Below are positions 24,231 to 28,334 of a DNA stretch of 62,219 bases, one piece after another. The stretch comes from a virus (taxonomy: Duplodnaviria > Heunggongvirae > Uroviricota > Caudoviricetes). The notes under the pieces were generated by a model. That model saw only the letters and a list, made by a program, of their open reading frames with translations. It was not told where the DNA came from and ran no database searches. A program made the translations under genes and the position numbers. The stretch lies in the IMG/VR virus record IMGVR_UViG_3300033148_004507, one strand, 5' to 3'. Position 1 is the first letter of the stretch, and every line of letters begins with the position of its first letter.

Positions 24231-24680
24231 ATGGGATTAAGATTTGCAGAAAAGAAAGATATGAAAGATATGACTGACATATACAAGGCTACCATCAAGG
24301 ACGAATTCTTCAAGTTTCCCACGATATACATAAACAGGCACATCCAAAGGAATCAGGCCGTTGTATTCGAGTATCAGAATAAGGTAATTGGTTGTTATAT
24401 ATGGACAGTAAATAAGATAGCCAATCCGACTGTATCTAAAAGGTCTAAGATGCCAATAATTTGGCTTGAACAAATCATGGTGAATCCAGATTATCAGGGG
24501 CGCAAGATAGGCAACATACTCATGGGAAGCTTTTTAAAGATGAACGGGAGAGAATTCAGGCTCGTATGTAAGGACAATCTAATAGAGTTCTATAAAAAAT
24601 ATGGGTTTGAAGTAACTGAGACAATCATATCGGACAATCGACAAAAGGTTATAATGACAAAAAGGACAAAAAGTATTTAA
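24231..24680 (+). CDS. GNAT family N-acetyltransferase
   Basis: LEQIMVNPDYQGRKIGNILM (acetyl-CoA motif A); FYKKYGF. Confidence 0.9.
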   Translation: MGLRFAEKKDMKDMTDIYKATIKDEFFKFPTIYINRHIQRNQAVVFEYQNKVIGCYIWTVNKIANPTVSKRSKMPIIWLEQIMVNPDYQGRKIGNILMGSFLKMNGREFRLVCKDNLIEFYKKYGFEVTETIISDNRQKVIMTKRTKSI

Positions 24681-25879: not shown

Positions 25880-26053
25880 ATGGTTGAATGTAATAGGTGT
25901 GATGAAGAAATAGATAGATGTGAGAACTGCCATGTTGACATGGTGGTTGAGGCTGATAGGACTGATACAAGATGTTCACCAGATGGACATTTTTGTAGTT
26001 TAGACTGTGCTTTAGACTACTATGAGATTGTAGATAATAAAATAAAGGACTGA
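25880..26053 (+). CDS. 57-aa Zn-finger microprotein (CNRC, CENC, FCSLDC)
   Basis: GGAGG RBS; read directly from sequence. Confidence 0.6.
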   Translation: MVECNRCDEEIDRCENCHVDMVVEADRTDTRCSPDGHFCSLDCALDYYEIVDNKIKD

Positions 26054-26066
26054 TAATGTGACATTA

Positions 26067-26363
26067 CACGGATATAACATCGCCATCAGCGACTCTCTCC
26101 TTGACTCTATCGAGTCAAAGGATAGACTTGGGCAACCGAGCCTATGCGTTGATTAGGAGGCAATAAGAAACATGAAAGAAACTATGCAGAAGTTAGAAGG
26201 GCGAGATACATACACACCCACGAATGCTCCACAAGTTCGTGGCAACTGTGATTCTGTGATTAAACATGACTGCGAGGTAGGTCAAGTGTTGCAGGATTTA
26301 AAAACCCCTTCTAACAACTCCGATGTGGACTTACTCCAGCATACAGGAGGGCATAAGGCCACT
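26067..26363 (+). ncRNA. IscB omegaRNA (5' guide ending about 26084; scaffold from about 26085)
   Basis: Directly upstream of the PLMP domain; scaffold begins ATCAGCGAC (cf. GTCAACTAC-type starts) with hairpin TTGACTC-TATC-GAGTCAA, then GTTGATTAGGAGG and ACACCCACGAATGCTCCACAAGTTCGTGGCAACTGTG as in archaeal IscB omegaRNAs as I recall them; boundaries approximate. Confidence 0.75.
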
Positions 26364-27533
26364 GTGTATGCATATGTGATAAACAAGAATGGACAACCAT
26401 TGATGCCCTGCAAGCCTGCGAAAGCAAGGCATTTGTTGAAGGCAGGCAAGGCAGAAGTAATAAATCGAAACCCATTCACAATTCGCTTACTATGGGATTG
26501 TGAAGATAATGTGCAACCGATTACGCTTGGCATCGATGCTGGCTACAGCAAAGTTGGTTTCAGTGCCGTGTCTGAGGAGAAAGAATTGATGTCTGGTGAA
26601 TTAACTTTAAGGAAAGGCATCTCCAAACTGATAGGGCAGAAAAGCAACTATAGAAAAACACGAAGGGGTAGATTATGGCATAGGCCACCTAGATTCCTAA
26701 ACAGAACAAGGCCAGAAGGCTGGCTTGCACCTAGCATCCAGCACAAGCTAGACAGCCATGTAAGACTTATCAAACAGATGAAATCAATCTTGCCGATAAC
26801 AAGAGTTATAGTCGAGGTTGCGAGTTTTGACATCCAGAAGATTAAGAACCCAAATATTGAAGGTAAAGAATACCAAGAAGGGGAACAAATGGGCTTCTGG
26901 AATGTACGAGAGTATGTTATTCACAGAGACAACCATGCTTGTCAGCACTGTAAGGGTAAAAAGAAAGATAAGATATTGCAGGTACATCACATCAATGATA
27001 GAATAGAAGGTGCTACAGACAGGCCAGAAGAGCTATTGACGGTGTGTAAGATTTGCCACGATGAGCATCATGATGGTGTCGATATAATTCCAACGAAAGA
27101 AATCGAGAGTTTCAAACCAGAGACTTTCATGACGATGGTTCATTGGAAGCTCACAGAAGTCTTAAATTGTGAACATACCTTTGGCTATTTGACTAAAAAT
27201 GGTAGGATTAAACAGGGTCTTGATAAATCTCATGTTAACGATGCCTTTGTAATTGCAAGTGGGATACAGCAGGAACGATGTGAGCTATATAGTGTCACAC
27301 AGGTTAGAAGAAATAACAGGTCTATTCAGTGTAATAGGAAAGGCTACAGGCCATCAATAAGAAGGCAGAGGTATAAATTACAGCCGAATGATTTAGTTAA
27401 ATATAATACAGGAATCCAACGAATAAAAGGAACATCTAGCTATGGTAGGGAAGTATCTTTTAAAGATGGGACACGCTCTAATATAAAAAATATAAAGTTA
27501 ATATGTTATGGAAAAGGGATGTGCTACAATTAA
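26364..27533 (+). CDS. iscB: IscB RNA-guided endonuclease (IS200/IS605 OMEGA system); likely start GTG 26364 rather than 26172
   Basis: PLMP domain (GQPLMPC); RuvC-I LGIDAG; Arg-rich bridge helix RKTRRGR; RuvC-II IVEVA; HNH CQHC...VHHI...CKICH; RuvC-III SHVNDA. Confidence 0.93.
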   Translation: MYAYVINKNGQPLMPCKPAKARHLLKAGKAEVINRNPFTIRLLWDCEDNVQPITLGIDAGYSKVGFSAVSEEKELMSGELTLRKGISKLIGQKSNYRKTRRGRLWHRPPRFLNRTRPEGWLAPSIQHKLDSHVRLIKQMKSILPITRVIVEVASFDIQKIKNPNIEGKEYQEGEQMGFWNVREYVIHRDNHACQHCKGKKKDKILQVHHINDRIEGATDRPEELLTVCKICHDEHHDGVDIIPTKEIESFKPETFMTMVHWKLTEVLNCEHTFGYLTKNGRIKQGLDKSHVNDAFVIASGIQQERCELYSVTQVRRNNRSIQCNRKGYRPSIRRQRYKLQPNDLVKYNTGIQRIKGTSSYGREVSFKDGTRSNIKNIKLICYGKGMCYN

Positions 27534-27593
27534 AATAAACGCAATTAATAAAGAAAGTATAAATATAATATTGATATACTTAGGAGTATTTAA

Positions 27594-27788
27594 ATGAAAC
27601 TGACATGGCAGGATTGCAGTATCGGGTTGAGTACGGCATCATCTGAGCAAGTTATGGCAATAGTCCAGAGTGAGAAGGGATTTCCACCTTTAGTTCTACT
27701 TGGTTGCTCACAAGTATCTGCTCACGGATATAACATCGCCAATAGCCGTAACCCACTGGAACAATCCTGCCGACATATGGGAGGTTAA
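27594..27788 (+). CDS. Uncertain 64-aa ORF overlapping a long hairpin
   Basis: Has a GGAG RBS but coincides with the structured element; may be non-coding. Confidence 0.3.
   Translation: MKLTWQDCSIGLSTASSEQVMAIVQSEKGFPPLVLLGCSQVSAHGYNIANSRNPLEQSCRHMGG
27607..27771 (+). other. Rod-like stem-loop (putative ncRNA or ssDNA hairpin) containing the IscB guide-matching site
   Basis: Nested pairs GGCAGGATTG/CAATCCTGCC, CAGT/ACTG, GGGT/ACCC, TACGGC/GCCGTA, TGAGCA/TGCTCA. Confidence 0.55.
27723..27741 (+). repeat. 19-nt direct repeat CACGGATATAACATCGCCA, second copy (first at 26067-26085)
   Basis: Exact match read from sequence. Confidence 0.95.
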
Positions 27789-27792
27789 TAAT

Positions 27793-27969
27793 ATGTTGGG
27801 AGAACAATTAGTATGTGGAAAATGCAATCAAGAATTTAAATTCCTGAAAATCATGAAGATAAATGGAGAGGGCAATTCAAATATAAAAGATATATATTGT
27901 TGTCCACATTGTAATGAAAAGCTTGCCGATAATATAGAAGAGGCCAATCTATTGATGGGGGTCAATTGA
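27793..27969 (+). CDS. Zn-ribbon microprotein (CGKC...CPHC)
   Basis: GGAGG RBS before ATG 27793. Confidence 0.65.
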   Translation: MLGEQLVCGKCNQEFKFLKIMKINGEGNSNIKDIYCCPHCNEKLADNIEEANLLMGVN

Positions 27970-28334
27970 TGGATATTGTAGAGGAATCCAATATAAAGAA
28001 AGGGGATATTATAATGATTTCATTATATGATAGTATAAACTCATGCAATGAAATTGAATATGATGATGTCTTACTCACAGATACAGAACGATTAACATCA
28101 ACGCATGTCTATGGTAGAGTGGAAAGAATAGATAAAAAATCAGTAGTAATTATAACTAATATAGATAATCTATGTGATGATACTAAACTAGATAGATTTA
28201 CAATATGCAACATAGTGACTATATTGAGGTCATCGATATTTAATATAGAATTATATACAAGAGAACAGAATTTTAATAAATACACATTGAAAGCAATAAA
28301 CCAAGCTAAAGAAACGGAGGCAGGACATGAGTGA
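27966..28334 (+). CDS. Hypothetical protein (Sm/SH3-like beta barrel possible)
   Basis: IKKGDII...GRVERIDKKSVVI. Confidence 0.55.
   Translation: MMDIVEESNIKKGDIIMISLYDSINSCNEIEYDDVLLTDTERLTSTHVYGRVERIDKKSVVIITNIDNLCDDTKLDRFTICNIVTILRSSIFNIELYTREQNFNKYTLKAINQAKETEAGHE

What the first reader, a model, noticed from the sequence alone, without database searches (positions are those of the whole stretch)
26067..27746. IscB whose omegaRNA guide matches a site about 190 bp downstream of its own gene: possible RNA-guided free-standing homing nuclease
Seen: the sequence immediately 5' of the omegaRNA scaffold, CACGGATATAACATCGCC(A) at 26067-26085, recurs exactly at 27723-27741, followed by ATAGCC. 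An 18-nt match has a chance of about 4^-18 per position. RuvC and HNH catalytic motifs look intact. Established: IscB guides derive from the 5' flank, target the empty insertion site, need a 3' TAM, and IS200/605 elements make no target duplication. Inference: the guide points at a neighbouring viral locus. If the resident flank (AATAG/ATAG) is not a valid TAM, the enzyme could cut the allele of co-infecting relatives, like T4 Seg-type intronless homing. If it is a valid TAM, the system would be self-targeting or regulatory.
Basis: partly seen in the sequence, partly recalled or inferred. Interest (0 to 1): 0.8.

Follow-up and report, generated by a model that had tools for sequence, protein, structure and literature searches.

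The report
IscB nuclease aimed at neighbouring RNA gene
An archaeal virus carries an intact RNA-guided nuclease (IscB) whose guide exactly matches a conserved structured-RNA gene about 190 bp downstream in the same genome; the virus's own copy differs from its relatives at the bases the nuclease would need next to the match, so it may cut and convert rival viruses rather than itself, though no cutting has been shown.

Summary
The 18 nt directly 5' of a full-length HEARO/omegaRNA scaffold (26067-26084), plus scaffold base 1, recur exactly at 27723-27741.

IscB looks catalytically intact. It has no tnpA and no conserved second transposon end.

The target is not a protein gene. The 64-codon ORF is a conserved rod-shaped RNA of about 167 nt, with 13 compensatory pairs in 6 sequences.

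Five relatives lack iscB at this slot. One (L007) has a perfect 18/18 protospacer. Four of the five have AGAAG after the protospacer; the iscB-carrying virus has AATAG. The A>T at TAM position 3 is one of only three window-private changes among 92 otherwise invariant columns. In OgeuIscB (TAM NNRR) that position must be a purine.

The left flank holds the first 11 nt of the RNA gene fused to the guide. The guide is therefore a relic of an earlier canonical insertion into a copy of that gene.

None of about 35 other viral IscB loci has a second match to its own guide.

Best reading (about 0.45): a transposon-derived IscB now acts as an RNA-guided free-standing homing or exclusion nuclease, with self-immunity through the TAM. 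The TAM of this enzyme, the omegaRNA 5' end and any cleavage are untested. The scan has found ordinary viral IscB insertions before, but not this arrangement.

The parts
25880..26053 (+). 57-aa zinc-finger-like ORF, the conserved left neighbour of the variable slot
   Evidence: ORF list. Homologues at 91%, 70% and 55% identity stand directly upstream of the slot in L007, L008 and L006. No Pfam match.
26054..26066 (+). Remnant of the spacer and first bases of a disrupted copy of the RNA gene (TAATGTGACATTA; with the next CA, 11 nt of the gene)
   Evidence: Aligns with the start of the RNA gene in relatives (L007 TATTATGACATTACA; L008 and L006 similar).
26067..26084 (+). Guide segment of the omegaRNA (18 nt), identical to 27723-27740
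   Evidence: It abuts HEARO model position 1.
26085..26334 (+). omegaRNA scaffold (HEARO, RF02033)
   Evidence: 95.2 bits against gathering 83, full model. Conserved in L003, L004 and L005.
26172..27533 (+). iscB ORF (453 aa as called; the PLMP domain begins at codon 65, GTG 26364). It overlaps the scaffold by about 165 nt.
   Evidence: Pfam RRXRR 5.9e-63 and HNH 1.1e-6. PDB IscB matches at 1e-37, with D (LGIDAG), E (IVEVASF) and HH (VHHIN) aligned to OgeuIscB D61, E193 and H247/H248. RuvC-III KSHVNDAF is present.
27534..27559 (+). 26 nt of unknown origin between the iscB stop and the resumed homology with relatives
   Evidence: Homology of L003, L004, L005, L012 and L013 to the window ends at the stop codon. 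Homology to L006 resumes at 27560.
27560..27593 (+). Second, diverged copy of the region upstream of the RNA gene (AT-rich; possible archaeal TATA-like box, which is inference)
   Evidence: blastn places L006 286-701 on window 27560-27973, while L006 216-324 also aligns to window 25961-26066 (alignment).
27606..27772 (+). Conserved rod-like structured RNA gene, previously read as the 64-aa ORF 27594-27788
   Evidence: 50 pairs, 96.3% of cells paired, 13 pairs with compensatory changes; 0 of 500 shuffles reach this and slid controls give 0-3. There is no third-codon-position bias (25/27/30), and L010 carries a +8 nt frameshift while the nucleotides stay conserved. Fold z-score -2.79. Single copy per locus.
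27723..27740 (+). Protospacer: resident target identical to the guide
27741..27746 (+). TAM-position hexamer AATAGC (relatives: AGAAGT x3, AGAAGC, TAAAGC)
   Evidence: Positions 1-4 are unpaired in the RNA model. The T>C at position 6 is compensated by A>G at 27636.

Best explanation
A transposon-derived IscB-omegaRNA cassette, with no transposase and no recognisable second end, sits in a variable slot of an archaeal virus. The slot lies between a 57-aa ORF and a conserved ~167-nt structured RNA gene.

History (well supported). The element once inserted in the ordinary way into a copy of that RNA gene, right after ...ACATCGCC. That is why its guide equals that sequence. Later about 120 nt of the disrupted 5' fragment were deleted at a CA microhomology, and the genome ended up with an intact RNA gene 60 nt downstream of iscB.

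Present working (inferred). The omegaRNA is transcribed with the upstream genes, possibly from the old RNA-gene promoter copy. It loads IscB with an 18-nt guide. The virus's own RNA gene is spared because its TAM-position bases are AATAG, with a pyrimidine at position 3. Relatives lacking iscB have AGAAG, and at least one natural relative (L007) combines that flank with a perfect protospacer. In a mixed infection such genomes would be cut inside the RNA gene. They would then either be lost, or be repaired from the iscB+ genome, which would copy the immune allele and the adjacent iscB. That is intronless-type homing or marker exclusion with an RNA guide.
For: - The guide abuts the scaffold and matches the resident site 18/18.
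- The nuclease motifs and omegaRNA are intact, and the protein sequence is the same on the three contigs on record.
- Five relatives lack iscB at the same slot.
- Alleles: L007 is 18/18 with AGAAGT; L006 and L008 have 2-3 mismatches with AGAAGT; L011 has AGAAGC; L010 has TAAAGC; the window has AATAGC.
- Among 92 columns invariant in the five relatives, the window differs at only 3, and one of them is TAM position 3. Taking columns conserved in at least 4 of 5, 2 of the 8 changes fall in the 5 TAM columns, P=0.033. With the three close relatives only, P is about 0.008.
- OgeuIscB reads NNRR directly 3' of the protospacer. A pyrimidine at position 3 or 4 clashes, 16-17 nt of guide suffice, and mismatches at positions 1-14 abolish cutting (PMC9640706).
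- Four other insertions of this IscB clade have purines at the equivalent positions just after the stop codon: AGAAC, AGAAC, ATAAG, AAAAG.
- The left flank is a remnant of the RNA gene start.
- About 35 other viral IscB loci show no second match to their own guide, so the arrangement is not a routine by-product of insertion.
Against: - The TAM of this IscB is unknown. Its TI domain cannot be aligned to solved IscBs and is only 63-68% identical to the closest homologues.
- There is only one iscB+ lineage, so the association of the TAM allele with iscB is a single evolutionary event. L010, which lacks iscB, also varies in the hexamer and shares the A at position 2.
- TAM positions 1-4 lie in an internal loop of the RNA, which may simply be free to vary.
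- An escape mutation after accidental self-targeting would leave the same pattern without any ongoing homing.
- The 18/18 identity is not itself evidence of selection, because the local window-L007 identity is about 92%.
- The omegaRNA 5' end and its expression are unknown.
Confidence: 0.45

Rival explanations
1. Historical relic with escape. The guide-target match is only the footprint of an old insertion followed by a rearrangement that restored an intact RNA gene. The TAM-position change arose, or was selected, once to stop the nuclease cutting its own genome. IscB persists as a passenger without driving its own spread or excluding rivals.
For: The left-flank remnant and the duplicated upstream region show a rearrangement history. 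A single lineage carries the arrangement. None of about 35 other viral IscB loci shows it, so there is no sign that selection favours it repeatedly. The local identity between the window and L007 is high enough that the 18/18 match needs no selection.
Against: The ORF and omegaRNA are fully intact, and the IscB protein is the same on all three contigs on record. A natural relative with a perfect protospacer and the ancestral flank exists, so an active enzyme would cut it whatever its history. A relic enzyme with a perfect self-match would be expected to decay or lose the match.
Confidence: 0.33
2. Self-directed function. AATAG is still bound, or weakly cut. The complex acts on the virus's own RNA gene, for example to repress its transcription or to start recombination-dependent replication there.
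For: The self-match is perfect and lies 190 bp away on the same strand as all the viral genes. RNA-guided repression by domesticated relatives (TldR, VIPR) is known (PMC10705468; bioRxiv 10.64898/2026.10.15.759431).
Against: The catalytic residues are intact, unlike in TldR. The target lies inside the RNA gene and not at its promoter. The resident flank carries a pyrimidine where OgeuIscB needs a purine.
Confidence: 0.1
3. The IscB system is not functional in this virus: the omegaRNA is not made with this 5' end, or the protein is inactive for reasons not visible in the motifs. The match then has no consequence.
For: No expression data could be obtained. No LE or tnpA is present, so the element is already degenerate as a transposon.
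Against: HEARO scores above the gathering threshold over the full model. All nuclease motifs are present. The RBS and ATG are conserved across the clade.
Confidence: 0.1
4. Chance repeat or assembly artefact.
For: None found.
Against: 0 of 100 shuffles give a second match. Independent contigs from two samples agree. An 18-nt repeat is too short to misjoin an assembly.
Confidence: 0.02

Closest known systems
IS200/IS605 (ISC) IscB-omegaRNA OMEGA elements, e.g. G. stearothermophilus ISGst5 IscB and OgeuIscB
   Same: A PLMP-RuvC-HNH IscB with a HEARO-type omegaRNA upstream of and overlapping the ORF. The guide is the DNA that flanks the scaffold 5' end, and it originally pointed at the empty insertion site (Meers preprint 10.1101/2023.03.14.532601).
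   Different: There is no tnpA. No conserved end lies beyond the stop codon. The target has not been destroyed by the insertion: it is present intact 190 bp downstream in the same genome, with altered TAM-position bases. In known elements self/non-self is set by presence or absence of the transposon; here it would be set by a substitution.
Free-standing homing endonucleases of T-even phages (SegB, SegF, SegG, Mob): intronless homing / localized marker exclusion
   Same: The nuclease gene lies beside a conserved target gene, not inside it. The resident allele differs from relatives' alleles by a few substitutions at the recognition site. The slot is variable among relatives (review PMC13565253).
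   Different: Recognition would be by an RNA guide plus TAM instead of protein-DNA contacts. The nuclease belongs to a different family. Nothing has been tested here.
Transposon non-restorative homing by TnpB (IS605 spread in plasmid populations)
   Same: An OMEGA nuclease cuts the orthologous site in a co-resident replicon, and repair copies the element (PMC11870625, as summarised in PMC13565253).
   Different: In that case the element sits in the target and interrupts it. Here the target is uninterrupted and discrimination would rest on the TAM.
Ordinary IscB insertions in phage and virus genomes found earlier in this scan (e1-1907808, e1-3169099, e1-1864287)
   Same: Viral IscB cassettes without tnpA, whose guide matches the intact site in sister viruses.
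   Different: In those cases the carrier genome itself lacks an intact target. None was reported with a second, intact copy of the target next to the nuclease.
TldR / VIPR: domesticated TnpB-derived RNA-guided repressors in phages
   Same: A virus-encoded RNA-guided protein with a guide against a defined locus.
   Different: Those are nuclease-dead and act at promoters or on competitors' genes. This IscB keeps all catalytic motifs.

Membership tests
IscB (OMEGA) RNA-guided nuclease | N-terminal PLMP domain and RRXRR/RuvC core | tested here: met
   Pfam PF14239 at 5.9e-63. The PLMP motif is in the translation. PDB IscB hits reach 1e-37.
IscB (OMEGA) RNA-guided nuclease | RuvC catalytic D, E and H..D, and HNH catalytic His | tested here: met
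   LGIDAG, IVEVASF and VHHIN align to OgeuIscB D61, E193 and H247/H248 (residue roles from PMC9640706). KSHVNDAF aligns to the RuvC-III motif of YnpsCas9.
IscB (OMEGA) RNA-guided nuclease | Cognate omegaRNA (HEARO) immediately upstream of or overlapping the ORF on the same strand | tested here: met
   RF02033 at 26085-26334, 95.2 bits against gathering 83, model 1-211.
IscB (OMEGA) RNA-guided nuclease | TAM-dependent, guide-dependent DNA cleavage | not testable with these tools
   Needs biochemistry. The TI domain cannot be aligned to solved IscBs.
IS200/IS605 (ISC) transposon | TnpA (Y1 HUH) in the element or nearby | tested here: not met
   No such ORF lies in 24-30 kb. The ORFs scanned next to iscB have no Y1_Tnp match, and the gene tables of L001 and L002 list no Y1_Tnp.
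IS200/IS605 (ISC) transposon | Conserved second end (LE with hairpin) beyond the nuclease gene, abutting the TAM | tested here: not met
   Homology to five other loci of the clade stops at the stop codon. Only 26 unexplained nt follow iscB.
IS200/IS605 (ISC) transposon | The guide equals the flank of the insertion site and the target is interrupted by the element | tested here: inconclusive
   The left flank is a remnant of the target gene, so the insertion was canonical once. The 3' remnant is missing and an intact target now follows.
Free-standing homing endonuclease (intronless homing) | The nuclease gene is adjacent to its intact target gene, in a slot that is empty or differently filled in relatives | tested here: met
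   L006 and L008 have an empty slot. L007 has a 59-aa ORF there and L010 has two ORFs.
Free-standing homing endonuclease (intronless homing) | The resident allele is resistant while alleles of nuclease-less relatives are sensitive | tested here: inconclusive
   The sequence pattern fits: AATAG against AGAAG, L007 18/18, P about 0.03. Sensitivity itself is untested.
Free-standing homing endonuclease (intronless homing) | Preferential inheritance or co-conversion of the nuclease gene in mixed infection | not testable with these tools
   The virus is uncultivated, and no sequencing runs could be listed.
TldR-like RNA-guided repressor | Loss of nuclease catalytic residues | tested here: not met
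   All RuvC and HNH motifs are present.

The most novel reading that the evidence does not exclude
This would be the first natural example of an OMEGA nuclease that has left its transposon and works as an RNA-guided free-standing homing or exclusion nuclease. It stands beside an intact, conserved viral ncRNA gene, matches it perfectly, spares its own copy through a single TAM-position change, and cuts the alleles of co-infecting relatives. Self/non-self discrimination by a PAM-like motif would then have arisen outside CRISPR.
Probability: 0.4. Interest if true: 0.8.

Novelty: new variant of a known kind. Interest (0 to 1): 0.6.

Why it matters
Known IscB and TnpB systems tell self from non-self by whether the transposon interrupts the target. 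CRISPR-Cas9 does it by the PAM. An IscB that keeps a perfect target in its own genome and is spared only by the neighbouring motif would be a natural intermediate between the two logics. It would also be the RNA-guided counterpart of the Seg/Mob homing nucleases that shape phage genomes.

The system is directly testable, because all the parts are defined: an 18-nt guide, two natural alleles that differ at TAM positions 2-3, and a natural sensitive allele (L007). As a by-product, the target turns out to be an undescribed, covariation-supported structured RNA of an archaeal virus family.

Tried and rejected
- Searches of the phage collection and IMG/VR found no relatives. The IMG/VR tries were the 19-mer, 'g64', the 211-aa neighbour, IscB as a single sequence, and two DNA patterns. 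The two hits to the pattern CCCACTGGAACANNCCTGCC (L014, L015) are chance matches in GC-rich phages.
- A metagenome scan with the g64 alignment found nothing. The genome-contig scan gave only a 45% IscB. No whole genome is held for this window.
- Sequencing runs: none was listed for either query and no RNA holder was listed, so neither expression nor population polymorphism could be examined.
- P0031 and P0038 (two IscB copies on one Thorarchaeota contig) were not on record, and P0009 had no DNA. The TAM therefore could not be read from multi-copy elements.
- The profile search hit P0125, a 3709-aa repeat protein, which is spurious.
- Folding 27534-27800 gave z = -0.96. Only with the boundaries from the alignment does the RNA stand out (z = -2.79).
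- Idea rejected: that the similarity between the scaffold start ATCAG (reverse complement of the TEM) and the target flank would reveal the TAM. Both AATAG and AGAAG match it at 3 of 5 positions, so it is uninformative.
- Idea rejected: AGAAAGT at 27552-27558 as a remnant of the old 3' junction. It is not distinguishable from chance in this A-rich stretch.
- Aligning the TI domain to solved IscBs, in order to transfer the TAM contacts, failed.
- After-stop sequences of the IMG/VR IscB loci gave no common motif, because they belong to different clades with real ends.
Full report
**Observation.** The 18-mer CACGGATATAACATCGCC occurs exactly twice in the window, at 26067-26084 and 27723-27740 on the + strand. 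No further site matches at up to 2 mismatches, and none appeared in 100 dinucleotide shuffles. The next base also matches; over 24 nt, 22 agree. Rfam HEARO (RF02033), the IscB omegaRNA family, matches 26085-26334 over its full length at 95.2 bits (gathering 83). The scaffold starts of the two closest homologues (GTCAGCGAC, GTTAACGAC) align with window ATCAGCGAC. The guide therefore ends at 26084, and the 19th matching base is scaffold base 1. Three contigs on record encode the identical IscB; the two that were read, from two JGI samples, show the same arrangement, so an assembly artefact is excluded.

**The nuclease.** ORF 26172-27533 matches Pfam RRXRR (5.9e-63) and HNH, and solved IscBs at up to 1e-37.
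- The RuvC-I Asp (LGIDAG), the RuvC-II Glu (IVEVASF) and the HNH His pair (VHHIN) align with OgeuIscB D61, E193 and H247/H248 (roles from PMC9640706).
- The RuvC-III motif KSHVNDAF is present.
- There is no tnpA nearby.
- Homology to five other loci of this IscB clade (69-82% identity: L003, L004/L005, L012, L013) covers only the omegaRNA and the ORF. It stops at the stop codon, so no conserved second transposon end exists.
- L004 is a distant relative of this virus and carries its IscB at a different place.

**The target is an RNA gene, not a protein gene.** Copy 2 lies in the ORF 27594-27788 (64 codons, no Pfam match). Homologous stretches were found in five other contigs: L006, L007, L008, L010 and L011.
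- Across the six sequences, variable sites are spread evenly over codon positions (25/27/30).
- L010 has a +8 nt insertion that shifts the frame, yet the downstream nucleotides remain conserved.
- RNAalifold gives a rod of 50 pairs. 96.3% of cells are paired, and 13 pairs have compensatory double changes. None of 500 shuffles reaches this, and slid controls give 0-3.
- Frequent G-U pairs indicate the + strand.
- With the alignment-derived boundaries the window copy folds with z = -2.79.
- Rfam has no family for it, and there is one copy per locus.

**Relatives without iscB.** In L006 and L008 the homologue of the 57-aa ORF (25880-26053) is followed directly by the RNA gene. L007, whose 57-aa ORF is 91% identical, has a 59-aa ORF in between, and L010 has two ORFs there. 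The position of iscB is therefore a variable slot. The alleles at the target, protospacer and the next 6 nt, are as follows:

| Locus | iscB at this slot | Protospacer vs guide | Next 6 nt |
|---|---|---|---|
| window | yes | 18/18 | AATAGC |
| L007 | no | 18/18 | AGAAGT |
| L006 | no | 2 mismatches (positions 9, 11 from the TAM) | AGAAGT |
| L008 | no | 3 mismatches (positions 9, 10, 15) | AGAAGT |
| L011 | no | 1-nt indel | AGAAGC |
| L010 | no | 4 mismatches | TAAAGC |

**Origin of the guide.** The bases left of the guide, TAATGTGACATTA, followed by CA, align with the spacer and first 11 nt of the RNA gene in relatives (L007 TATTATGACATTACA). The left flank is therefore the start of the RNA gene fused, at a CA microhomology, to the 16-18 nt that precede ...GCC|AGAAG. 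That is what remains of a canonical IscB insertion into a copy of this gene after about 120 nt were deleted. The roughly 35 nt upstream of the RNA gene are present on both sides of the cassette, in diverged form (26028-26066 and 27560-27598). The 3' remnant is missing, and an intact gene follows. The duplication thus came from a rearrangement after insertion; the exact order of events cannot be reconstructed. As a control, none of about 35 distinct viral IscB loci (33 from IMG/VR plus L003 and L004) has a second match (16 nt, up to 2 mismatches) to its own guide within the locus. The arrangement is rare, not a routine by-product.

**TAM-position analysis.**
- Among the 92 columns of the 167-nt core that are invariant in all five iscB-less relatives, the window differs at only three: 27646, 27655 and 27743. 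Position 27743 is TAM position 3 (A>T).
- Among the 124 columns conserved in at least 4 of 5 relatives, the window differs at eight, two of them in the five TAM columns (P=0.033).
- With only the three close relatives the hexamer holds 3 of 11 private changes (P about 0.008). One of those three, T>C at position 6, is a compensated pair change in the RNA (27636 A>G), so it should not be counted as TAM-specific.
- L010 shares the A at position 2.
- For OgeuIscB the TAM is NNRR on the non-target strand directly after the protospacer. A pyrimidine at position 3 or 4 clashes with the TI domain, 16-17 nt of guide suffice, and mismatches at positions 1-14 abolish cutting (PMC9640706).
- By that rule AGAA would be a valid TAM and AATA would not, and only L007-type alleles would be cut.
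- Weak independent support comes from four other insertions of this clade. They have purines at the equivalent positions, counted from the last base of the stop codon: AGAAC, AGAAC, ATAAG, and (G)AAAAG.
- The TAM of this enzyme remains unknown. Its TI domain is 63-68% identical to those homologues and cannot be aligned to solved IscBs.

**Mechanism.**
- Shown: an intact IscB-omegaRNA; a guide identical to a resident, uninterrupted target 190 bp downstream; the guide's origin from an old insertion; natural iscB-less relatives with the ancestral flank, one of them with a perfect protospacer; and a resident flank changed at positions 2-3.
- Inferred: the resident site is immune because of the TAM, and the RNP cuts L007-type genomes in mixed infection. 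Repair from the iscB+ genome would then co-convert the immune allele and iscB, with about 1.7 kb of heterology to bridge. This parallels Seg/Mob intronless homing (PMC13565253); alternatively the rival genome is simply lost.
- I put this at about 0.45.
- The main rival (about 0.33) is a relic: the same history, with a one-off escape mutation and no ongoing drive.
- A self-directed regulatory role (about 0.1) is disfavoured by the intact catalytic sites and the pyrimidine at TAM position 3.

**Comparison and novelty.** The protein and RNA are ordinary members of the IscB/HEARO family. The element fails the IS200/IS605 membership features that could be tested (TnpA, second end). What differs from every described OMEGA element is that the target is intact in cis and discrimination would rest on the TAM. 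The 2026 review lists, for OMEGA systems, only restorative and non-restorative transposon homing, both of which distinguish targets by presence or absence of the transposon. Full-text searches found no report of an OMEGA nuclease in an intronless-homing arrangement. Earlier entries of this scan describe canonical viral IscB insertions, but not this arrangement. I rate it a new variant of a known kind.

**Limits.** There is one iscB+ lineage and five relatives. No expression or read-level data are available, and there is no biochemistry. The host and the co-occurrence of the window virus with L007 are unknown. iscB+ and iscB- relatives of the family do co-occur in metagenomes 3300029813 (L003, L008) and 3300027865 (L005, L012, L010).

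Noticed in passing
window 27606-27772 (ORF 27594-27788): The called 64-aa gene is a conserved rod-like structured RNA of about 167 nt with 13 compensatory pairs in six sequences. It has no codon-position bias and no Rfam family. Its function is unknown. It always sits between a 57-aa zinc-finger ORF and a 58-aa zinc-ribbon ORF.
   Followed up: yes
L007 1121-1300; L010 1525-2060 (minus strand); window 26054-27593: The gap between the 57-aa ORF and the RNA gene is a variable slot. It is empty in L006 and L008, holds a 59-aa ORF in L007, holds 102-aa and 76-aa ORFs in L010, and holds iscB in the window. In L007 the inserted ORF starts with a near copy of the RNA-gene start (ATGAAATTA against ATGACATTA), which hints at cassette exchange at a short boundary sequence.
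   Followed up: partly
window 26154-26363: Across this IscB clade a strong RBS (AGGAGG) and an ATG are conserved inside the omegaRNA, just after helix P1. The called ORFs (about 450 aa) therefore carry a ~64-aa N-terminal extension that overlaps the scaffold, ahead of the PLMP motif. It is unclear whether this extension is translated.
   Followed up: no
L004 3872-4132 and 2351-2935: A distant relative virus with an IscB at another site also carries an 86-aa fragment matching the Cas12f1-like/TnpB zinc-finger domain (PF07282) and an ART-PolyVal protein. It shares the short N-terminal leader motif seen on many window genes at 40-61 kb.
   Followed up: no
L003 and L008 (JGI 3300029813); L005, L012 and L010 (JGI 3300027865): Contigs with IscB of this clade and contigs with an iscB-less RNA-gene slot come from the same metagenomes. 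L010, from the sample that holds two such IscBs, has the other deviant flank (TAAAGC) and four protospacer mismatches.
   Followed up: no
L026 2191-2707; L049 247-331 and 2273-2670; L041 50-130: Several IMG/VR viral IscB-omegaRNA cassettes lie directly beside tRNA gene arrays.
   Followed up: no
window 24672: The only difference between the window and the 4.1-kb contig from a second sample (L002) is A/C at 24672, so the virus population is nearly clonal across the two samples.
   Followed up: no
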